Virus genome (UHGV): UHGV-1440165
Strand: one strand, 5' to 3'
DNA length: 64,000 nt
Source of the DNA: a virus
In this document: positions 1,483 to 56,320 of the stretch, piece after piece
How the letters are laid out: the number at the start of each line of letters is the position of its first letter
Numbering within the stretch: the stretch's first letter is position 1
The notes under the pieces: model-generated
Told to the model about the DNA's origin: nothing
Database searches by the model: none
What the model saw: the letters and a program-made list of their open reading frames with translations, nothing else
Translations under genes and position numbers: made by a program

Positions 1483-2598
1483 TTATGCGTCCAATTTGTT
1501 CAGGCGTTGTTGGGCAGCATTGTAGAAATGCTCTGCCAGTTTACAGACGTTGTCAGGGCGCTGGATGTTGTTCCCGGCGCGGATATCCTTCTTCAGGACT
1601 TCCACCGCATCGGTCGCCACCATCTCTTCGGTGACCTCAACCTTCTCAGCCGCCACTGTAATCGTCCGGTCTATGAAGTTGTAGTCAATGCACTTGCAGC
1701 GCTTCATTGCATCACAGAACTTTTCATAATGCTTGGCGTTGTCACGGTTCTGTACGATAACCTTAACGATTTGCCCTTCAATACCCAAGCCTGTGTTCAG
1801 CCATTCCGGGTCGATCCAGTTGCCTTCTTCATCGGAGGACAACTTGGTGTAGTCATACTCCACGAACCGGAAGAGCGTCTGGTGCTCGGCGTTCGGGATA
1901 AAGATCTCGCCACCGCGCATGTCGTCTACATAGAAGCCCCGGTTGGTGCCGTCTTTGTAGTCTTCCCAGTTCAGGTGATACGGAGTCCCAATATACTGAA
2001 TGTTACCTTCCATCGAACGGGTATGGAAATGCCCTGTGTCGACCCGGTCAAACTTGGAAAGCAATGCAACGTCGATCTGACCGTGATCACAAGTAGAGGA
2101 CTGGTACATTTTGAACCCTGCCAGCTCCAGATGCGCAAAACAGTACTTGGCGTCTGTATCTTGTATCGCCTTAATAGACGCATCATAGTTCTCCTTGTTG
2201 ATCCACGGTAGGAGCAGGGTCTTAACGCCCTCGATCATTACTTCAGTCGGTTCACTGTAATAGTGATAGACATCTGGGTCGAGTTCGTTCAGGTAGGACG
2301 GCCAGTTGATGCGGTTGGACTCTTCCAGGGTGATGTCATGGTTGCCCACGATGCCATTCCACTTGATACCAGCAGCTTTCAGCGCAGGAGTGAGTTCGTC
2401 CTTCAGCCAGTCTTTGTCGCGCCCGTACATGAATTTGCGGACATCAAAGGTGTCACCAAACTGCCAGATCTCTTTGATGTCAGAGTCAACAAGCTCAGGG
2501 ATGAAGTAATTGATGAGATAGTTCTTTATGAAGTCGCGAACGTAACGGGAACCATTACGGCTCCCGATATGCAGATCGCCGATTTTAGCAATCGCCAT
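1483..2598 (-). CDS. SbcD/Mre11-like metallophosphoesterase nuclease (T4 gp47-like)
   Basis: 371 aa; calcineurin-like phosphoesterase motifs (GDLHIG, GNHD); directly upstream of the SbcC-like gene. Confidence 0.85.
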   Translation of the reverse strand: MAIAKIGDLHIGSRNGSRYVRDFIKNYLINYFIPELVDSDIKEIWQFGDTFDVRKFMYGRDKDWLKDELTPALKAAGIKWNGIVGNHDITLEESNRINWPSYLNELDPDVYHYYSEPTEVMIEGVKTLLLPWINKENYDASIKAIQDTDAKYCFAHLELAGFKMYQSSTCDHGQIDVALLSKFDRVDTGHFHTRSMEGNIQYIGTPYHLNWEDYKDGTNRGFYVDDMRGGEIFIPNAEHQTLFRFVEYDYTKLSSDEEGNWIDPEWLNTGLGIEGQIVKVIVQNRDNAKHYEKFCDAMKRCKCIDYNFIDRTITVAAEKVEVTEEMVATDAVEVLKKDIRAGNNIQRPDNVCKLAEHFYNAAQQRLNKLDA

Positions 2599-3326
2599 TA
2601 TTCTGTTTCTCCTTCGTTTTCGTCCAGATCGAATTGGGTGTTGCCGAAGTCTTGATCTGAATTGTCTTCGGCCTGCGCTGTTACCGTATTCTTACCTTGT
2701 GACATGTATTGAAGTATGCCTTTCGCGATCTTTTTGTTCGATTCGGCGGCTCGGGCGTTCTCTACCTTCTCCCGCTCCTTCTGTCTTTGGGCATCCTTCT
2801 TGTTTTCGAAGTTTCCGATGCGCTCGCGGAAGTCCATGCCAATCCCAGTGGCATCAACAAAGATCTCTTGTTGGAAGTCAGGATCATCGGCCAGGCCTGC
2901 AAATCCACCTGCCTCTTCAAAGGAACGCAGCTTGATGTATGTGTGCTCTTCTTCTATGTTCAGCTTGCGGGCAAATGAGCGGTCAGCGCACATGGTCACC
3001 CAGGAGAAGAAGTTGATCTTGCCTTTGCGCCCGACGTGACCAACATCGAAGGTGTGGAGATAGCGAAGGATGTTGACTACAGCTTCAGACACCATGTCAT
3101 CGCGGTACGGATAATCGCGGTAATTGTAGCGGGTGCTCATCTTGCTGATGATGCGCTGGACCTGGACTGCAACGTAGTTGGGGATCTTGGGGAGCGGTGT
3201 GCCTTCAGTTAATGCCTTCTTGCGAGCGGGGATCCAATCACGAAGGATACTGATGACACGCTCGTTATCTTCGTCCGTAAAATATTTGACGACATTCTCG
3301 CCACGATCAACATAATTCATACCCAT
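2598..3326 (-). CDS. gp55-like late-transcription sigma factor (putative)
   Basis: 242 aa, ATG start; N-terminal half resembles T4 gp55 in pattern and sits next to the gp47/gp46-like genes as in T4; acidic C-terminal tail. Confidence 0.45.
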   Translation of the reverse strand: MGMNYVDRGENVVKYFTDEDNERVISILRDWIPARKKALTEGTPLPKIPNYVAVQVQRIISKMSTRYNYRDYPYRDDMVSEAVVNILRYLHTFDVGHVGRKGKINFFSWVTMCADRSFARKLNIEEEHTYIKLRSFEEAGGFAGLADDPDFQQEIFVDATGIGMDFRERIGNFENKKDAQRQKEREKVENARAAESNKKIAKGILQYMSQGKNTVTAQAEDNSDQDFGNTQFDLDENEGETE

Positions 3327-3337
3327 TGTGGGAACCC

Positions 3338-3865
3338 TCAGATACCGATAAATTCATCAAAAGATCCAACAACCTTCTTCACAGAGATCTTGTCGTTCTC
3401 AATCAGGAAGTTGCTGTCGTTCTTGGCTGCGGTAGCCCATGTGTCCGCGAGTTCATTGCCTTCAACACCCGCATGACCTTTGACCCATTTTAGTTCAACT
3501 TCACAAATTGAACTAACGAGATCATATATTCTGAACAGATCTTTTATGAGTTCAACATTCTTTTCCGGGAACCCCTGATACTCCCACTTGGCTCGCCATT
3601 CGGTGACGCTCTTGATGGTGTATTGACTGTCAGACCAAATTGTTGCCTTTGGTATCCTGCGCTCACCCTTTCCCGAGAATGCCCACAGTAGCTTCAATGC
3701 GTTGGTCACACCCAACAACTCGGCGATGTTGTTGGTGGACGGAGGAGGTAGGTGGCCGAAGAACACCTTCCATTGCATACCCGATATCGGCCTGATGGCA
3801 AAAGCCCACCCTGCAGCCTGATTTGTCCGAGGGTTAGAACCCCCGTCAGAAAAGATTTCAATCAT
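3338..3865 (-). CDS. Ribonuclease H (type 1)
   Basis: RNase H motifs IFSDGGS, TNNIAELLGVTNAL, DSQY, KGHAGVEGNELAD. ORF track extends to 3961 via a non-ATG start; first ATG is at 3865 (MIEIFSDGG...). Confidence 0.8.
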   Translation of the reverse strand: MIEIFSDGGSNPRTNQAAGWAFAIRPISGMQWKVFFGHLPPPSTNNIAELLGVTNALKLLWAFSGKGERRIPKATIWSDSQYTIKSVTEWRAKWEYQGFPEKNVELIKDLFRIYDLVSSICEVELKWVKGHAGVEGNELADTWATAAKNDSNFLIENDKISVKKVVGSFDEFIGI

Positions 3866-3867
3866 GA

Positions 3868-3875
3868 TATAAATA
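3868..3875 (+). promoter_or_regulatory. T4-type late promoter box TATAAATA (plus strand)
   Basis: Exact TATAAATA about 36 nt upstream of the ATG at 3911; RBS AGAGGAA lies between. Confidence 0.5.
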
Positions 3876-3910
3876 TCCCAAACTGGTTTTATAGAAAGAG
3901 GAATGAAACT

Positions 3911-4678
3911 ATGGCACCCCGCGCATATCGTTTCAGTCTCACCGCCCCGCAGATTGAGCAATTGCTCCTTTCTATCAATGATGCTATCAAGTCAGAAGAT
4001 ATCATCTATGATTATGCTACAGGTGGGACTGTTGGGCAAGTCGCAGCAGCGTCTGCCGTCAAGAACATGTGGCTCAAGCTCAATGAGATGGTGACAGGCC
4101 AAGGCCTCAAAGACGCCATCAACAGTGCTGGCGACAGCAACGTGTTCACCGACTATTATAAGTCTCTTCTGGATCGCGAAGGCTGGAAATTTATTGGCTC
4201 CCCAGCAGATATCCTGGCTCGAGACGATATCGACACCACGAACTTCACGGGCGGCGAAGTCATTCTACTTCAGAAGAACGCCTCAGGCAACCCTGAGTTC
4301 CAATACTGGAAGCGAACTCCCGTCGCGGGTGGTGACCCTACCTTCGCCTGGGCTTCGGTCTATGAAGGGAACTCCAACGACTCAACAATCGAAATCCCGG
4401 TGATCGGCACGAGCGTCCTCAAAGACATTCCCAAGGCTCTCTTCCATATGGTGGAGTTCCGAGTTCATGTCTATGACGAAACGCTGGGGCACTGGCAGGA
4501 TACAGACGGCAAGGTCGGTTATCGTGGTGAGGATCTGTTCTACAGCACGTACAATCATGTGCAGACCAAACCGCTCGCCACCATTGACTTCAGCCAAGAC
4601 ACAGACAGCATGAAGATCTCCGTGACTTCCCTGGAGCCGAATGTCAAATGCCATCTGTCGTTTATCGCTGGTTACTAA
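3911..4678 (+). CDS. Hypothetical late protein on plus strand
   Basis: ATG at 3911 with AGAGGAA RBS and upstream TATAAATA; 255 aa with protein-like composition. ORF track (3752..4678) begins at a non-ATG codon. Confidence 0.55.
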   Translation: MAPRAYRFSLTAPQIEQLLLSINDAIKSEDIIYDYATGGTVGQVAAASAVKNMWLKLNEMVTGQGLKDAINSAGDSNVFTDYYKSLLDREGWKFIGSPADILARDDIDTTNFTGGEVILLQKNASGNPEFQYWKRTPVAGGDPTFAWASVYEGNSNDSTIEIPVIGTSVLKDIPKALFHMVEFRVHVYDETLGHWQDTDGKVGYRGEDLFYSTYNHVQTKPLATIDFSQDTDSMKISVTSLEPNVKCHLSFIAGY

Positions 4679-6393
4679 ACCTCAAACACGGCATCGGTAA
4701 ACCAGGCGGGGAAGAACTCTGGGTTGCGCATCATCAATGATTCAAAAGACGAATCAAGGATGTATGTCGCAGCCCAGTCATTCACACCCCTGACCGAACG
4801 CCCGCACATCTGAACGATACGCAGCACCGCCATCCTGAAGTACGCCGAAGGGTCTACACTGTTGACATGAGCTACAAGCGGGTCACCCAGGTAGTCATAA
4901 GGCACTTTGATCAGGATTTGGAAGCGGCTGTAATCGCCTTTGAAGTCATACCCCTCTTCCATAGCCGGACTGGCAATCACACAAGGCTGCTTGGTCCGGA
5001 ACGCATGTTCCATGATATCCATCAGGGCTTTGCGAGTACGAGGCACATGAATGATGTTCCGGTACTTGCTGAACTTCTGTAGAGCCAGGGCACGGTCATA
5101 GCTAACGGTGTGGATGATACCGGACTGGCCGGGATGAAATGCGATGATCTCGTCCACGTACTCAGCCAGCTTCTTCATCTCGTAGTCGCCCATGTTCGCC
5201 GTCATCTTCATGACGGGCATGTAGTTGACCTTGCGATTCTCAATCGGGATAGGGTTGCCGATCTGAATCTTGTGGTACTCGCCATCACGGATGCCCAGTG
5301 ACCGGGCGTACGAGTCGATCCCGCAGATGGTCGCCGACATATGAACATGGTAATCGCCCTTGCGAAACAGGCCGAACTGGGACACATCAGACGCGATGAC
5401 AGGCTTGAACTGAATCATGCCCTTGTCCTTCTCCTGAACGATGAAGGTGCTGGCGTTGGTCTGTCCCATGATGCCGCAGTAGTCGCTGAGGTTGTGAAGG
5501 GTGTCTATGATGTCCGACAGCTTCATCACCTGGGCTTCCGTCAGGCGCTCGTCCTCGACCAGTTCCTCAAGAGTTTCCAGCAGGGCTTCAACCTTATCAT
5601 GCAGGTCGTCAAAGATTGCATGCATCTCACCTGTCAGCGAGTACAGCTTGCCCAACTCATAGTTCTCTGTGCGGATTACGATATCTTTGATGATCTCCAC
5701 GATAGGCACTCCCTCGGGGATCGTAAGCAACCCTTCCACAGCCTTTATGCTGTATTCCATGATCGTGTGCTCTAGGAGCGTAGAGGGCATCTTATGGCAC
5801 TCGTCAAGGATCAACATATCGGCACGGTTTTCTGGCTTCATACAGATCGTCGTACACATCTCCACCATCATGGCGGCGTTGGTGCAGCGCAGGGAGGAGA
5901 CGTCTGTCCACTGACGTCGCGCCTGAACATATGGGCAACGATTCTTGCTGCAGTGGCCATCCCGGCATGCCATACGGCACTGGATGGCGTTGTAGTACAG
6001 GTCAGGGCTGATATGGCAACGATAGTTCTTCTTGCCTTTCAGGATGTCTATCACCACTGCCCTTTCAGCCGCATACTGATCTTGCAGCCCTTTGGTCGGT
6101 GTCGTAATAGACGTGCGGAACTGACCATATGGGTTGCGCTCAAGAACCAGGTGGCGAAGCACATTATGAATAGTAGTACCGATCAGGGATTTACCCACAC
6201 CAGTTGGAGCCTCAATGATCACGTGTTTGACCTTCTTGTTCACGAGGGCATCAACGGCTTCAACGATGCATTCCATCTGGCCGGGGTTGGCGGTGTCGTA
6301 TGGGAAGAACTCAGTAGCAAGAGACTTGATGCGGTCTATGCTGACTGGTCCGACGCCATCGAGCGCCTTGGTGTATTGGTTGAATGCTGTCAC
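4675..6393 (-). CDS. Rad3/XPD/DinG-family DNA helicase with Fe-S cluster motif
   Basis: 572 aa; Walker A APTGVGKS, DECH box (ILDECH), four-cysteine cluster CRMACRDGHCSKNRC; GTG start preceded by AGGAG. Confidence 0.7.
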   Translation of the reverse strand: MTAFNQYTKALDGVGPVSIDRIKSLATEFFPYDTANPGQMECIVEAVDALVNKKVKHVIIEAPTGVGKSLIGTTIHNVLRHLVLERNPYGQFRTSITTPTKGLQDQYAAERAVVIDILKGKKNYRCHISPDLYYNAIQCRMACRDGHCSKNRCPYVQARRQWTDVSSLRCTNAAMMVEMCTTICMKPENRADMLILDECHKMPSTLLEHTIMEYSIKAVEGLLTIPEGVPIVEIIKDIVIRTENYELGKLYSLTGEMHAIFDDLHDKVEALLETLEELVEDERLTEAQVMKLSDIIDTLHNLSDYCGIMGQTNASTFIVQEKDKGMIQFKPVIASDVSQFGLFRKGDYHVHMSATICGIDSYARSLGIRDGEYHKIQIGNPIPIENRKVNYMPVMKMTANMGDYEMKKLAEYVDEIIAFHPGQSGIIHTVSYDRALALQKFSKYRNIIHVPRTRKALMDIMEHAFRTKQPCVIASPAMEEGYDFKGDYSRFQILIKVPYDYLGDPLVAHVNSVDPSAYFRMAVLRIVQMCGRSVRGVNDWAATYILDSSFESLMMRNPEFFPAWFTDAVFEV

Positions 6394-6443
6394 TTGCTTC
6401 CTCCTATGGGATTCGCCTTTAGTTTAACCGATTCCCAAGAACG

Positions 6444-6476
6444 AAAAAGCCGGAGCGTTTGCCCCGGCTTTCTCTT
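6444..6476 (-). terminator. Putative intrinsic terminator downstream of the HU-like gene
   Basis: GC hairpin (AGCCGG...CCGGCT) followed on the minus strand by a T-run. Confidence 0.45.
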
Positions 6477-6521
6477 TTGCCATGCCCTGCGTTGCAGAGC
6501 CAGGCCGCGCGTCAGATAGAA

Positions 6522-6800
6522 TTACTTGCCGTTGGCAGCGTTCTTCAGACCTTCGCCCACTTTGAATTTCACAACGTTTTTCGCCGCGATCTGAATGGTC
6601 TGGCCGTTCAGAGGATTGCGACCTTCACGAGCTTCTTGTGCTTTAACTTCGAACGCGCCGAAGCCGACCAGCTGTACAGACGCGCCTGCAGCAACTGCAG
6701 TTTTAACGCCGTCGATAAAGGATGCCACTACTTTCTCCGCTTCGCCTTTGGTGATGTTCTGGGTCGAAGCAATGTGGGCAACAAATTCAGTACGATTCAT
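6522..6800 (-). CDS. HU/IHF-family histone-like DNA-binding protein
   Basis: Strong HU-like sequence (VQLVGFGAFEV...REGRNPLNGQTIQIAAKNV). ATG at 6800 (MNRTEF...) with GGAGA RBS; track start 6842 is an upstream extension. Confidence 0.85.
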   Translation of the reverse strand: MNRTEFVAHIASTQNITKGEAEKVVASFIDGVKTAVAAGASVQLVGFGAFEVKAQEAREGRNPLNGQTIQIAAKNVVKFKVGEGLKNAANGK

Positions 6801-6894
6801 CTGGATTTCTCCGTTTGGGTTAATGTTTACTTTCATGTTCACTACAAGAGGACTACAGCTTACCTAACAAAACATATTGAATAAAGCGAAATTA

Positions 6895-7143
6895 TTAGTT
6901 TTCCGCCATGACTTCATTCGTCATCGTTCCCCTGCACCTACAGTGTTCACAGACCACGGCAACGCAAGGCTTAAACTTCTGAACACTGGCGACGGGGACA
7001 TTCACCGCATTTGGAAAAACTGGAATCTCTCTGGCTTCAATCCGTTGCTCAGAGAGACGGTCTTCATCCAAGAAGGTGACTGTCTTGTGCGGACAACGCA
7101 TTGACGCTTCACCTTCCCAGGTGATTACTGTGTTTGAGGTCAT
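6895..7143 (-). CDS. Small Cys-rich protein (possible zinc ribbon)
   Basis: 82 aa, ATG start; CPH...C...CEHCRC cysteine pattern. Confidence 0.4.
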   Translation of the reverse strand: MTSNTVITWEGEASMRCPHKTVTFLDEDRLSEQRIEAREIPVFPNAVNVPVASVQKFKPCVAVVCEHCRCRGTMTNEVMAEN

Positions 7144-54400: not shown

Positions 54401-56320
54401 TGCAGCGGAATTCAACGTGGATGGATAGTAACCCGCATCGCGCTGCCCGCCGTCCAGGGTAAATCTGTTGGTCACATCGGCGCCAGTAGAGTCTTTCACA
54501 CTGATAAGTTTGTACCCGTCCAGGTTAGTCAGAGCCACAGACGTGGAAGAAGTGAAGGTCACTGTTTGAGTCACTTCAGTCACTGTCTTGGTTTTGATGT
54601 TTGCCGTCGTGCGCACCATCATCGCCAGAAGGCTGATCGTCTGGTTGGCATAACTCGCACCCAAGGAAATCTGCAGAGCAGAACCCACCGGAGTACCAGT
54701 CAGTGCCAGGCCAGAGGAAATGTCGAACTGAGCTGTCGTGCCGTCTGCTTTTGCTGCAGAGTACAGAGAAAATTCAGGACTGAAGCTGTATCCCAGAGGA
54801 GCAGAAATCGAACCGGAGCCAGTTGCGCCCAGAGTAACCTTGTAGGTGCGCAGAACCGAATAGTTGATGTCGATCACACCGCTCGGAGCAAGGGTCTTAA
54901 CACCGCTCACAGGCAGAGGGAACACCAGATCGATTGAAGAACTCTGAGAGAACTGGTTCGACTCCAGGTCTGCAGAGAACATGGTTGTGCCACTTTCTTC
55001 ATAAGCGATCTTGGTCACAGTGGACATGTCACCAGTCACCGTCAGGTCACGCAGGTAAAGTTTGAATTCTGTACCAGTACGTTCGGCCGAGATACACAGA
55101 GCAGTTGCCTGAAGGACGCTGGAGGCGTTCAGGAGCTTGTAACGGATAGTGCGTGAGATAACCGGGACGCCCTTGGAGTTCTTGGACACCAGATAGTTCC
55201 CGGTTGCCACAGCCACAGGCGTGTTGTTCAGTACTTCAGTGTCACGGGCTTTGTCGACGTTCACCAGGACTTCACCCAGGTTTTCGATACGACGACCACG
55301 AACATAGGAGACCCCCGGCTTCATAACAGCCACGAACTTGCTTGAATCACCACCTTCGGCTGGGGTATACACGCCGCCGTTGTTGTTCTGTTTCAGGTGT
55401 TCGCGCAGGTCGATCTGGTGCGGAGAAACGTTGTAGTCACCTGATTCTTCATAGGTGCGCTGCGCCATCGTGTCTTCGAGGATATTGTAGGTGGACTGTG
55501 TCACCATGGACTGAATACGCCCATCTTTGACCTTAGCCAGTTCCACAAAGTCCGGCACTTGTTCATCGTAGCCGAAAGCCTGGAGAACCATATCGATACG
55601 GAGACGATGCGCGCCCGGCGCTTTGGAGTTCGGAGTACCCTGAGCATTGGAGTACAAACTCTCATCTTCTGCTTCGGTGACGATGGTCTCGGTTACTTTG
55701 AACCCAACTCGATGTGAAGACGTGTTGGATGTCTTGTCCACGATTAGAGTTGCTGGCTCAACGTCCAGGAACATACCACGAACAAAGTACACGCCACGAG
55801 TCATGCGCGCAACAATAGAACCGCCGACAGTGGCAGCAACACCATAACCGATGCGAATAAAGTTATTGTTGACGTCATAGGTGTTGAAGTACAGGTTGTC
55901 ACCAGCTTCGAAGCCGTCAGAGTTCCCGCTTTCGGTCATCTCCAGAATGGCGTACATCGTGTCTGGTTCAGTAACATAGCGCTCCAGGGACAAGACGCGA
56001 GCCTTCGCATTGTTGTCCTTACCCAGGACATACAACTCCGGGATGTTTTCCAGATCAGTGAATTCAGTACCGCCTGCCAGAGTGAACTTCATGGATACCG
56101 CAGAGTTCGTGATCGTCAGGCCGCCGGGGATAACCATTGATCCGTCTTTGAACAGATGATTCCCAAGTTTCTCCAACTGGTCTTGGAAGATGGTCTGCAT
56201 CTGGTTCAGTTCGCGAGTCTGGATTTTGACCGGAGCTGGACGGAATAAGATGCGTGAAAAACGCTTCTCAGGGTTCCAGTCATCCCAGTATGGGCGACGG
56301 TTTAGATTCATTTCTTGCAT
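51497..56320 (-). CDS. Giant virion structural protein (1607 aa), putative tail/baseplate or adhesin component
   Basis: Single uninterrupted ORF with ATG start and upstream late-promoter-like motif; T/S/G/N-rich composition typical of fibre or baseplate proteins; no specific motif recognised. Confidence 0.55.
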   Translation of the reverse strand: MQEMNLNRRPYWDDWNPEKRFSRILFRPAPVKIQTRELNQMQTIFQDQLEKLGNHLFKDGSMVIPGGLTITNSAVSMKFTLAGGTEFTDLENIPELYVLGKDNNAKARVLSLERYVTEPDTMYAILEMTESGNSDGFEAGDNLYFNTYDVNNNFIRIGYGVAATVGGSIVARMTRGVYFVRGMFLDVEPATLIVDKTSNTSSHRVGFKVTETIVTEAEDESLYSNAQGTPNSKAPGAHRLRIDMVLQAFGYDEQVPDFVELAKVKDGRIQSMVTQSTYNILEDTMAQRTYEESGDYNVSPHQIDLREHLKQNNNGGVYTPAEGGDSSKFVAVMKPGVSYVRGRRIENLGEVLVNVDKARDTEVLNNTPVAVATGNYLVSKNSKGVPVISRTIRYKLLNASSVLQATALCISAERTGTEFKLYLRDLTVTGDMSTVTKIAYEESGTTMFSADLESNQFSQSSSIDLVFPLPVSGVKTLAPSGVIDINYSVLRTYKVTLGATGSGSISAPLGYSFSPEFSLYSAAKADGTTAQFDISSGLALTGTPVGSALQISLGASYANQTISLLAMMVRTTANIKTKTVTEVTQTVTFTSSTSVALTNLDGYKLISVKDSTGADVTNRFTLDGGQRDAGYYPSTLNSAAGAISGTFTVVYSYFAHSAGDFFSADSYSSIDYQDIPTYTSRTSGTVYSLADSLDFRPKIANGTSDTDMVRPNTAVILDTEYYLPRIDAVYLAENGVFNIARGISSNNLAAPAIPDNAMRLYEMLIPPYTADIDDIQIRTVDNRRYTMRDIGKLETRISNVEYYTSLSQLESSAMTQQVFDPITGNPRFKNGIAADPFKDFRLIDDLSSDWMGSVDTDNGRLRPFTQQNAVDLTPVNWDKVMDGMVVCRYTPEISVNQEYATTTINVNPYAVFNWEGYIKLNPTTDYWFENYYVAPRVINETINTRGAIQPGSVYGTWKTSSTTEYQTQVGKWGYRYRTTVSTRDVITYTYTDTTTTTMTGEQIVETQVIPYMRQSDIAFEGSGLRPFTQMYAFFSNRAVSAFCKPESGNFGDPLMTDASGTVKGVFRVPVTETDRFNTGDNVFRLTDSPVDSKSADDTLTNAEIVHKSFGKKQGIQKTYLNTRVLGYTASSSTETTSNTELIKKWKDPIAQSFMVQSSVGGEYIEGVEVFLSTKSRDVPITLEIREMSNGLPSNSVITRKTLTPDQVNVSNNSETATKFTFDYPVYLQAGTEFAIVLLANTQDYNAYIAEMGKKNLLSNEYIAKQPYTGVFFTSSNGSTWSPNQMADLKFRVYRANFNAGANIVTFDVKAGPKPRPLGLNELNCTSGASTIVIDAIGHGLVAGNSVTLSGLTGGCGFTPEQLNKTHVVTDAAFSNFTIDVGAAATSSGQIGGDDASYLGNYLVDMFYGSATNSALEGSILKLEYRYRDATSNSMSDWIEFESETNVYLPTEGIYRQVGDFQVRATMTRSESNNFVAPMVDGDDFTVVFNTFGVDPFEDVFRYITKDVGFDNPCSTIKLYFGAMLPSQSTMAVQVKLLRAGQDMDSVAWETVTPLSPLVNDGSTFFEYEYDKTVSATNPFVAVKVRALVRGNRVAPPSFKDFRLIALA

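What the first reader, a model, noticed from the sequence alone, without database searches (positions are those of the whole stretch)
3911..4678. Late-promoter-driven plus-strand gene inside the early region
A 255-aa ORF on the opposite strand, between RNase H and helicase genes, carries an exact TATAAATA box and a good RBS. It is likely expressed late despite its location, so it may be a structural or lysis-timing protein. It has no recognisable motif.
Basis: partly seen in the sequence, partly recalled or inferred. Interest (0 to 1): 0.45.

Follow-up and report, generated by a model that had tools for sequence, protein, structure and literature searches.

The report
Known late virion protein, gp9-like domain
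This is a real, conserved gene of ViI-like (Ackermannviridae) phages whose 92%-identical counterpart was already shown by mass spectrometry to be a virion protein with a predicted late promoter, so the finding is correct but ordinary; the one addition is that its last 95 residues are related to the tail-fibre docking domain of phage T4 protein gp9.

Summary
The window has a 255-codon ORF at 3911-4678 (+), a GAGG ribosome site, and the only exact TATAAATA in 64 kb (3868-3875). It lies in a 45-bp gap between divergent RNase HI and this gene, and its stop overlaps the DinG-like helicase gene.

The window is an Agtrevirus-like Ackermannviridae phage. The ORF is PHROG 3833, present in 357 phage records and under strong purifying selection (dN/dS 0.07). 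Its Dickeya phage LIMEstone1 ortholog (ORF093, 92% identical) was published in 2012 as an MS-confirmed "unknown structural protein" with an annotated late promoter.

A TAAATA core persists upstream of the gene as far as Vibrio relatives. In this window it also precedes sheath, tube, neck, scaffold and a VriC-like gene. Late expression is therefore well supported, but no transcript data exist.

Two fold searches, a PDB-wide profile search (E 7e-5) and hhalign (97%, E 9e-11) tie residues 161-255 to the C-terminal domain of T4 gp9. The N-terminal part is unrelated to gp9 and resembles heads of tail-fibre proteins.

Most likely it is a trimeric tail-periphery adaptor. A short receptor-binding knob is the main rival. 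A lysis role is rejected. Novelty is low.

The parts
3868..3875 (+). TATAAATA box, a T4-type (gp55-dependent) late promoter -10 element. It begins 2 nt beyond the RNase HI start codon on the other strand.
   Evidence: Sequence. It is the only exact copy in the window. The same box is annotated as a late promoter in LIMEstone1. It is conserved as TATAAATA in LIMEstone1, Serratia 3M and Taipeivirus FKP14, as TATAAGTA in CBA120, and as CTAAATA in Vibrio phages. The TAAATA core is enriched upstream of morphogenesis genes in the window.
3896..3902 (+). Shine-Dalgarno sequence AAGAGGA; its GAGG ends 9 nt before the ATG.
   Evidence: Sequence. A GAGG/AGGA element is retained at this position in most orthologous loci examined.
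3911..4678 (+). Coding sequence, 255 aa plus stop. It is the orthologue of LIMEstone1 ORF093 (CCD57654.1) and a member of PHROG 3833.
   Evidence: PHROG 3833 E 2e-160, full length. 357 phage records. dN/dS 0.07. Virion presence was shown by MS for the orthologue.
3911..4186 (+). N-terminal helical module (residues 1-92). It shows no similarity to the gp9 N-terminal domain. The same module heads longer fibre-like proteins.
   Evidence: AF2 helices at 12-21, 47-60, 63-72 and 81-89. hhalign N part against gp9: E 0.66. Profile matches cover residues 4-140 at the N-termini of P0200 (409 aa), P0216 (430 aa) and P0227 (628 aa).
4133..4174 (+). Motif DSNVFTDYYKSLLD (residues 75-88), the unit that is tandemly repeated in phage tail-fibre proteins.
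   Evidence: Profile positions 60-88 match 4-9 repeats in long proteins such as P0205-P0222. P0206 shows repeats 'ATDSNVFTDDEKTKLNDIE' followed by a tail-collar-type end.
4187..4390 (+). Middle beta region (residues 93-160). It is the best conserved part of the protein; its relation to gp9 is not significant.
   Evidence: AF2 strands. Mean identity 76% in alignment A1. hhalign middle part against gp9: E 0.12.
4391..4675 (+). C-terminal beta-barrel domain (residues 161-255), homologous to the T4 gp9 C-terminal domain (PF23618, T4_gp9_10_C).
4675..4678 (.). Four-base tail-to-tail overlap of this gene's stop codon (TAA 4676-4678) with the helicase gene's stop codon (TAG, complement of 4675-4677). 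There is no intergenic terminator.
   Evidence: Sequence. The same overlap is present in LIMEstone1, pSal-SNUABM-02 and CBA120. No terminator above chance was found.
2598..3326 (-). gp55-type late sigma factor gene, the trans-acting factor expected to read the box. It lies two genes away.
   Evidence: PHROG 234 'late sigma transcription factor', E 9e-51. Orthologues are annotated as gp55.
3338..3865 (-). RNase HI gene, the divergent neighbour. Its start codon and ribosome site share the 45-bp gap with the late promoter.
   Evidence: PF00075 E 2e-23. A 528-nt gene is annotated in LIMEstone1 and pSal-SNUABM-02.

Best explanation
The ORF is the Agtrevirus copy of a virion protein conserved throughout Ackermannviridae and the related PhiW-14-like myoviruses.

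Expression (inferred). Late in infection, host RNA polymerase carrying the phage gp55 sigma factor, with gp33 and the gp45 clamp, starts at the TATAAATA box at 3868-3875. This gives an mRNA with a leader of about 30 nt and a strong ribosome site.

Protein. It has three parts:
- residues 1-92: a helical N-terminal module of the kind that heads tail-fibre proteins, including one copy of the fibre repeat motif DSNVFTDxxKxLL;
- residues 93-160: a conserved beta region;
- residues 161-255: a beta-barrel homologous to the C-terminal domain of T4 gp9, the domain onto which the T4 long tail fibre docks coaxially.

Most likely function (inferred). It assembles as a trimer at the periphery of the tail or baseplate. 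The N-terminal module anchors it to the virion. The gp9-type domain serves as a conserved protein-protein docking surface for another trimeric appendage, such as the tailspike complex, the prongs or the VriC-like protein.

Shown: the ORF is real and under selection; it is an orthologue of an MS-confirmed virion protein; the promoter-like box is conserved; the C-domain is homologous to gp9.
Inferred: late timing, trimeric state, location on the tail, and adaptor function.
For: Identity and reality:
- PHROG 3833, E 2e-160.
- 357 phage records, 80-99% identical across Salmonella, Klebsiella, E. coli, Dickeya and Shigella phages, and 25-33% in Vibrio phages.
- 72 representatives among 1.84 billion proteins, nearly all 245-260 aa long.
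- dN/dS 0.07.

Virion protein: LIMEstone1 ORF093 was detected with 40.8% coverage and 8 unique peptides, and the authors state a structural counterpart exists in ViI. It is annotated 'confirmed structural protein'.

Late promoter:
- The box is annotated in LIMEstone1.
- It is retained across genera while the flanks diverge.
- The TAAATA core is about 12-fold enriched upstream of starts in this window.
- Six of the seven other such starts are morphogenesis genes: VriC-like 1607-aa protein, 82-aa virion protein, gp14, gp18, gp19, gp22.
- In LIMEstone1, exact TATAAATA occurs 7 times against 1.5 expected, 5 of them correctly placed.
- gp55 is encoded at 2598-3326. gp33 and gp45 homologues are reported for AG3 (PMC3121705).
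- A distant homologue (L011) is again a lone opposite-strand gene with a double CTAAATA upstream.

gp9 C-domain:
- Foldseek PDB top hits are T4 gp9 at 7e-8 and 9f4a at 1.3e-6.
- BFVD hits include Aeromonas phage 65 'Gp9plus10' and Vibrio nt-1 gp9.
- hmmsearch against PDB gives E 6.9e-5 as a unique hit.
- hhalign gives 95% and 97%.
- One GenBank record (Klebsiella phage FKP14) independently labels the orthologue 'baseplate wedge tail fiber protein connector'.

Role of the gp9 C-domain in T4: long tail fibres attach coaxially to it, and the N-domain binds gp7 (PMC3004832).

Adaptor rather than variable receptor binder: the C-domain stays 76-78% identical between genera with different hosts.
Against: - No transcript mapping exists for any family member. 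The 2011 CBA120 paper states that the late-promoter sequence of the ViI family was not identified, and CBA120 itself has TATAAGTA.
- Mass spectrometry shows presence in purified virions, not location. Four low-coverage non-structural proteins were also detected in the same experiment, although 40.8% coverage is far above those.
- Only the C-terminal 95 residues are demonstrably gp9-like. The gp9 N-terminal and middle domains (PF07880), which bind the baseplate in T4, are absent. In this family they are found in tailspike TSP4 instead.
- A 2024 review states that Ackermannviridae lack the gp9-gp11 periphery.
- The gp9 C-domain fold is also used as a distal carbohydrate-binding module in receptor-binding proteins (preprint 10.64898/2026.05.12.724579).
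- The trimeric state and any partner are untested.
- Global TM-scores to gp9 are low (0.34), because only domains superpose, not the whole chain.
Confidence: 0.6

Rival explanations
1. It is a short receptor-binding fibre or knob. The N-terminal module fixes it to the baseplate, and the gp9-type C-terminal barrel itself binds a host surface carbohydrate rather than another phage protein.
For: - The N-terminal module and the DSNVFTD..K..L motif are those of tail-fibre proteins.
- BFVD fold hits include cyanophage tail fibres, a T7-type fibre and an Mtd N-terminal domain protein.
- A 2026 preprint lists 'gp9 C-terminal domain-related' (ECOD 3386.1.1) among recurrent C-terminal receptor-binding modules. 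It also reports a 'short tail fiber' class in Taipeivirus, an Ackermannviridae genus.
- The C-domain evolves faster than the rest of the protein (61% against 72-76% mean identity).
Against: - The C-domain is still 76-78% identical between Kuttervirus, Taipeivirus and Agtrevirus, which infect hosts with unrelated O and K antigens. True receptor-binding domains of this family (the TSPs) are highly variable.
- dN/dS is 0.07.
- I could not confirm that the preprint's Taipeivirus class is this protein.
Confidence: 0.25
2. It is a virion protein located elsewhere, for example a head or neck decoration or a packaged protein. In that case the gp9-type barrel is only a reused jelly-roll-like fold.
Against: The best fold and sequence relatives are all tail-periphery proteins: gp9, tailspike N-terminal regions and tail fibres. 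The N-terminal module is shared with fibre-like proteins. Baseplate genes of this family are also scattered singly among early genes, for example gp48, gp54, gp26, gp5 and gp25, so location in the genome says little.
Confidence: 0.1
3. It is a non-structural late protein, for example a lysis-timing factor, as the first reader offered as an alternative.
For: Only the late-type promoter and the lack of a Pfam hit.
Against: There is no transmembrane or signal-like segment (maximum 19-residue hydropathy 0.98) and the pI is acidic at 4.8. The orthologue was recovered from purified virions at 40.8% coverage. The fold is that of tail proteins.
Confidence: 0.02
4. It is a chance ORF with a chance TATAAATA, and no gene is present.
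For: One TATAAATA in 64 kb is not significant on its own.
Against: Peptides were detected for the orthologue. dN/dS is 0.07. Homologues of conserved length occur in 357 phage records and 72 distant clusters. The AF2 model is confident, with pLDDT 86.7.
Confidence: 0.01

Closest known systems
Dickeya phage LIMEstone1 ORF093 (CCD57654.1), 'unknown structural protein'; PHROG 3833; Vi01 'conserved phage associated protein'
   Same: 92% identical over all 255 residues. Same position between RNase HI and the helicase, same TATAAATA box (annotated there as a late promoter), and the same 4-nt stop overlap. It is an orthologue.
   Different: Nothing of substance. The window lacks the homing endonuclease that its closest GenBank relative, pSal-SNUABM-02, carries nearby.
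Bacteriophage T4 gp9, baseplate wedge tail-fibre connector (PDB 1QEX/1S2E; Pfam PF07880 + PF23618)
   Different: The N-terminal coiled coil and middle XD1 domain (PF07880), which bind gp7 in T4, are not detectable. Here the N-terminus is a different, fibre-type module. Ackermannviridae have no T4-type long tail fibres, so the docking partner, if any, must differ. The gene is not in a baseplate cluster.
CBA120 tailspike TSP4 N-terminal region (anchor domain + XD1; PDB 7REJ)
   Different: TSP4 carries the gp9 N-terminal and middle part, whereas this ORF carries only the gp9 C-terminal part. No sequence similarity between the two was tested or seen.
T4 late promoters (TATAAATA read by gp55 with gp33 and gp45)
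   Same: Exact consensus octamer, no -35 element needed, placed about 35 nt before the start codon, and a gp55 homologue encoded in the window.
   Different: In this family the usual form is CTAAATA with a TAAATA core. That form precedes the 7 other such starts in the window and most of the 33 sites annotated in LIMEstone1. Function has never been tested experimentally in the family.
Tail-fibre proteins built from 'DSNVFTDxxKxKLxxIE' repeats (for example P0206, which has a tail-collar end)
   Same: They share the motif at residues 75-88 and the preceding 'GLKxAI' segment.
   Different: Those proteins have 4-9 tandem repeats and are 480-2400 aa long. This ORF has a single copy and no fibre shaft.

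Membership tests
Ackermannviridae virion protein family (PHROG 3833 / LIMEstone1 ORF093) | Full-length sequence match to the family profile | tested here: met
   E 2e-160, residues 1-255 on profile positions 1-255. 92% identity to ORF093.
Ackermannviridae virion protein family (PHROG 3833 / LIMEstone1 ORF093) | Conserved position: opposite strand, between RNase HI (next to gp55-gp47-gp46) and the DinG-like helicase | tested here: met
   Same order in LIMEstone1, pSal-SNUABM-02, CBA120, Serratia 3M, FKP14 and two Vibrio phages.
Ackermannviridae virion protein family (PHROG 3833 / LIMEstone1 ORF093) | Presence in purified virions | not testable with these tools
   Published for the orthologue only: 40.8% coverage, 8 unique peptides (PMC3296691).
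T4 gp9 (baseplate wedge tail-fibre connector) | C-terminal domain PF23618 (T4_gp9_10_C; gp9 residues 169-272) | tested here: met
   hhalign of residues 161-255 against gp9 180-280: Prob 97%, E 9e-11. Family profile against all PDB sequences: gp9 is the only hit, E 6.9e-5. Caveat: Pfam's own HMM does not reach E 10 on single sequences.
T4 gp9 (baseplate wedge tail-fibre connector) | N-terminal coiled coil plus middle XD1 domain PF07880 (T4_gp9_10_N; gp9 residues 7-168) | tested here: not met
   No Pfam hit for any of 29 members. hhalign N part E 0.66, middle part E 0.12. The ORF should therefore not be filed as a gp9 orthologue, only as a protein containing the gp9 C-domain.
T4 gp9 (baseplate wedge tail-fibre connector) | Homotrimer | not testable with these tools
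   Only monomer AF2 models could be made.
T4 gp9 (baseplate wedge tail-fibre connector) | Sits on the baseplate periphery (bound to gp7) and carries a fibre coaxially on the C-domain | not testable with these tools
   The T4 arrangement is taken from PMC3004832. No structure of an Ackermannviridae baseplate was found in the PDB sequence search or in the paper library.
T4-type late promoter | TATAAATA (or family variant) -10 element without a -35 element, a short distance upstream of a late gene | tested here: met
   Exact octamer at 3868-3875, 35 nt before the ATG. Conservation across relatives. TAAATA enrichment upstream of morphogenesis genes.
T4-type late promoter | Phage encodes gp55, gp33 and gp45 | tested here: inconclusive
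   gp55 was found in the window (PHROG 234, E 9e-51). gp33 and gp45 were not searched for in the window. They are annotated in LIMEstone1 and reported for AG3.
T4-type late promoter | Replication-dependent transcript starting just downstream of the box | not testable with these tools
   No transcriptome of any Ackermannviridae phage was found in the library.
Holin / lysis-timing proteins | One or more transmembrane segments | tested here: not met
   The maximum 19-residue Kyte-Doolittle mean is 0.98.

The most novel reading that the evidence does not exclude
Contrary to the published view that Ackermannviridae lack the gp9-gp11 baseplate periphery, they and the PhiW-14-like phages may keep a gp9-type socket in split form. 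The gp9 N-terminal and XD1 part sits at the head of tailspike TSP4, and the gp9 fibre-docking C-domain sits in this separate 28-kDa protein. That protein would then be the still-unidentified docking point, or the 'prong', for the branched tailspike complex.
Probability: 0.3. Interest if true: 0.45.

Novelty: already known. Interest (0 to 1): 0.2.

Why it matters
Little changes for phage biology in general. The gene, its late-type promoter and its virion status were published in 2012 for an orthologue. Single late genes scattered among early genes are normal in T4-related genomes.

The modest value lies in annotation. About 350 deposited Ackermannviridae genomes call this protein 'hypothetical' or 'unknown structural', and a 2024 review states that the family lacks gp9-gp11. 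The protein nevertheless carries a bona fide gp9 C-terminal domain. That makes it a concrete candidate for the unassigned tail-periphery parts, namely the prongs or the docking of the tailspike complex. These phages are being engineered for host range, so the assignment is relevant there.

The window also gives clean in-silico support for TAAATA, usually as CTAAATA, as the late-promoter core of this family.

Tried and rejected
- Pfam and NCBIfam scans of the protein and of 29 homologues gave no usable hit.
- Single-sequence and shallow-profile searches of PDB found nothing. hhalign with the shallow alignment A1 was non-significant: Prob 0.7% against the T4 gp9 sequence and 4.8% against the gp9 family alignment. 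The link appeared only after the alignment was deepened with distant representatives.
- Counting TATAAATA or TATAAAT in the window is not significant on its own.
- The sigma-70 promoter and intrinsic terminator scan of 3000-7000 gave nothing above shuffles. I therefore could not assign the minus-strand promoter of the RNase HI-gp55 block or a terminator for the late transcript.
- Literature searches for an Ackermannviridae cryo-EM virion or baseplate structure and for a transcriptome found none.
- Pfam hits of the long repeat proteins (DUF2922, Lectin_like) are repeat-driven and uninformative.
- The lysis-timing idea is rejected: no transmembrane segment, and the protein is virion-borne.
- The 308-aa GTG-start reading used in the ChubbyThor record is rejected. 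It would overlap RNase HI and is not supported by the alignment.

Full report
**What is there**

On the + strand an ATG at 3911 opens a 255-codon frame ending at TAA 4676-4678. It is preceded by AAGAGGA (3896-3902) and, 35 nt upstream of the ATG, by TATAAATA (3868-3875). The minus-strand neighbours are an RNase HI gene (PF00075, E 2e-23) and a DinG/Rad3-type helicase gene (PHROG 2488, E 7e-260). Beyond RNase HI lie a gp55-type late sigma factor gene (PHROG 234, E 9e-51) and the gp47/SbcD gene.

Two details differ from a purely mechanical reading. RNase HI starts at the ATG at 3865-3863, as annotated in relatives, so the divergent gap is only 45 bp. The longest ORF (GTG 3752, 308 aa) is an over-extension, because all homologues start at the position of ATG 3911. 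The stop codon overlaps the helicase stop codon by 4 nt, tail to tail.

**Where the window comes from and whether the gene is real**

tblastn finds the protein in 357 phage records. The best is Salmonella phage pSal-SNUABM-02 (Agtrevirus, 99.6%), followed by Shigella phage Ag3 (94.9%). Limestonevirus is at 92%, Kuttervirus and Taipeivirus at about 82%, Serratia 3M at 63.5%, and Vibrio Ackermannviridae at 25-33%. The protein matches PHROG 3833 ('unknown function') end to end, E 2e-160.

Against LIMEstone1, dN/dS is 0.07. The protein is 28.2 kDa and acidic (pI 4.8), and it has no hydrophobic segment. The gene order gp46-gp47-gp55-RNase HI, then this gene on the opposite strand, then the helicase, holds in every genus checked. 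The Vibrio phages have the same order with one extra small gene before the helicase.

**It is already described**

In the LIMEstone1 record the orthologue is ORF093, 'unknown structural protein; confirmed structural protein'. A 'putative late promoter' is annotated on the same box. The paper (PMC3296691) lists ORF93 at 28.32 kDa with 40.78% coverage and 8 unique peptides by ESI-MS/MS of virions. It also says that all twelve unknown structural proteins have structural counterparts in ViI.

Database names elsewhere are 'hypothetical', 'putative structural' or 'conserved phage associated protein'.

**Is the promoter more than a chance octamer?**

By count alone it is not: 1 occurrence against 0.48 expected. 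Four other lines do support it.

- Conservation. The box is TATAAATA in LIMEstone1, Serratia 3M and Taipeivirus FKP14, TATAAGTA in CBA120, and CTAAATA in two Vibrio phages. In Serratia and Vibrio the surrounding spacer has diverged.
- Placement in this window. TAAATA has 8 of its 23 occurrences inside the -60..-15 zones of Shine-Dalgarno-preceded starts, which make up 2.8% of positions. Other same-composition hexamers give 0-1, and the overlapping AAATAT gives 6. The seven other starts belong to a VriC-like 1607-aa virion protein, an 82-aa virion protein, gp14 (head closure), gp18 sheath, gp19 tube, gp22 scaffold and a UvsW-type helicase.
- Placement in LIMEstone1. Exact TATAAATA occurs 7 times against 1.5 expected, and five copies sit within 45 nt upstream of a same-strand start. 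Those starts include gp26, ORF080 and the ORF168/169 pair. The authors' 33 annotated late sites show a (C/T)TAAATA core.
- Machinery. gp55 is in the window, and gp33 and gp45 homologues are reported for the close relative AG3.

No transcript mapping exists for the family. In 2011 the late signal of ViI-like phages was still called unidentified. Late timing is therefore a well-supported inference, not a demonstrated fact.

The strand switch itself is not diagnostic, because late genes of this family lie on both strands among early genes.

**What the protein is**

Pfam and NCBIfam give nothing. A first AF2 model (29 sequences, pLDDT 74) showed N-terminal helices and a confident C-terminal beta domain.

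- Foldseek ranked T4 gp9 (1qex) first at E 7e-8 and 9f4a second at 1.3e-6. A profile search confirmed that 9f4a is a true gp9 homologue.

Sequence support came only after the family was deepened. An exhaustive profile search found 72 representatives, mostly 245-260 aa. A 48-sequence alignment (A3) then gave these results:

- T4 gp9 was the only significant hit among 177,635 PDB sequences, at E 6.9e-5; the next best was E 0.24.
- hhalign against a gp9 family alignment gave Prob 95%, E 2.7e-8.
- The AF2 model improved to pLDDT 86.7.

Slicing the alignment shows where the relation lies. Residues 161-255 match gp9 180-280 at Prob 97%, E 9e-11. Residues 1-105 and 89-165 do not match (E 0.66 and 0.12). 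In Pfam terms, gp9 is PF07880 (N-terminal part, residues 7-168) plus PF23618 (C-terminal part, residues 169-272). This ORF has only the second.

Against predicted viral structures, the fold also matches Aeromonas phage 65 'Gp9plus10', Vibrio nt-1 gp9 and several tail fibres. One 2024 GenBank record, Klebsiella phage FKP14, already labels the orthologue 'baseplate wedge tail fiber protein connector'.

**The N-terminal part**

Profile positions 60-88 (GLKxAI..DSNVFTDxxKxLL) match 4-9 tandem repeats in long proteins. One of these, P0206, is a typical repeat fibre with a tail-collar-type end.

The first ~140 residues also head longer proteins: P0227 (628 aa, followed by fibre-like repeats), P0200 and P0216. 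I read this as a fibre-type virion attachment module. This is an inference.

**How it most likely works**

In T4, the gp9 N-domain binds gp7, and the long tail fibre docks coaxially on the gp9 C-domain (PMC3004832). In Ackermannviridae, the gp9 N-terminal and XD1 part is found at the head of tailspike TSP4 (PMC8825819 and PMC8432352). The 2024 family review says the gp9-gp11 periphery is missing and that the prongs are of unknown composition (PMC11721090).

The simplest reading is a trimeric tail-periphery protein. It would be anchored by its own N-terminal module and would offer a gp9-type barrel as a conserved docking surface. The C-domain remains 76-78% identical between genera with unrelated host glycans, which favours a phage-protein partner over a variable receptor.

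The main rival is a short receptor-binding knob. A 2026 preprint lists 'gp9 C-terminal domain-related' among recurrent distal receptor-binding modules and mentions a short tail fibre class in Taipeivirus. Location, oligomeric state and partner are all untested.

**Wider distribution**

Distant members occur in Delftia phage PhiW-14, Ralstonia RSP15, Pseudomonas Cygsa01 (annotated 'structural protein'), Acinetobacter SH-Ab 15599 and Vibrio YC.

In a metagenomic relative (L011) the gene is again a lone opposite-strand gene. There it sits among thymidine-hypermodification and replication genes, with CTAAATACTAAATA upstream.

**Verdict**

The feature is ordinary for T4-related genomes and already known.

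The refinement is the domain assignment: a gp9 C-terminal domain on a non-gp9 N-terminal module. That makes the protein a candidate for the unassigned baseplate periphery of these phages. The refinement is modest, and one deposited annotation partly anticipates it.

Noticed in passing
window 3866-3910, with 3338-3865(-) and 2598-3326(-): The 45-bp divergent gap holds the late box, both ribosome sites and nothing else. Any minus-strand promoter for the RNase HI-gp55-gp47-gp46 block must therefore lie inside this ORF or upstream of the helicase. Early or middle transcripts would then run antisense through at least part of the late gene. The scan found only chance-level sigma-70 matches on the minus strand (4039-4011, 4290-4262).
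   Followed up: partly
window 4675-4678: The convergent stop codons of this gene and the helicase gene overlap by 4 nt (CTAA), and no terminator lies between them. The same overlap occurs in LIMEstone1, pSal-SNUABM-02 and CBA120. Late transcripts should run antisense into the helicase gene, which could give late-phase interference with an early gene.
   Followed up: no
window, minus-strand starts at 56320, 51445, 49832, 45530, 42820, 39273, 29324: Seven further starts carry a TAAATA core 15-60 nt upstream; six of them read CTAAATA and one GTAAATA. They precede a VriC-like 1607-aa protein, an 82-aa virion protein, gp14, the gp18 sheath, the gp19 tube, the gp22 scaffold and a UvsW-type helicase. 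The family's late-promoter core is therefore TAAATA (usually CTAAATA). The finding's gene is the only one in the window with the full T4 octamer.
   Followed up: yes
window 3326-3338, compared with L002 4694-5416: The closest GenBank relative, pSal-SNUABM-02, has a GIY-YIG (Seg-like) homing endonuclease gene between gp55 and RNase HI. The window has only an 11-nt gap there. The window is therefore not that phage. The exact protein sequence of the window's ORF is on record only from JGI/IMG and ENA assemblies.
   Followed up: no
window 3752-3910; P0001; L012 2384-3256: Some deposited annotations over-extend the gene upstream: ChubbyThor to 308 aa from the GTG, and FKP14 to 290 aa. These readings run across the late box and into RNase HI.
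   Followed up: partly
L003 (CBA120), about 2960-2970: CBA120, the one Kuttervirus locus examined, carries TATAAGTA instead of TATAAATA at the same place, one mismatch in the core. Either that position is tolerated or the promoter is weaker in that genus.
   Followed up: no
L011 6094-7680 and 8001-8765; L011 9594-10088: A distant homologue (22% identical) sits next to 5-hydroxymethyl-dUMP kinase-like and ADDT genes, which act in thymidine hypermodification. A second lone opposite-strand gene nearby, a gp19-like tail tube gene, has GATAAATA about 31 nt (box end to ATG) upstream of its start. The 'single late gene embedded in early genes' layout therefore extends to PhiW-14-like phages.
   Followed up: partly
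window 6522-6842(-): An HU-like DNA-binding protein gene lies just upstream of the helicase. It is annotated 'DNA-binding protein HU-beta' in relatives.
   Followed up: no
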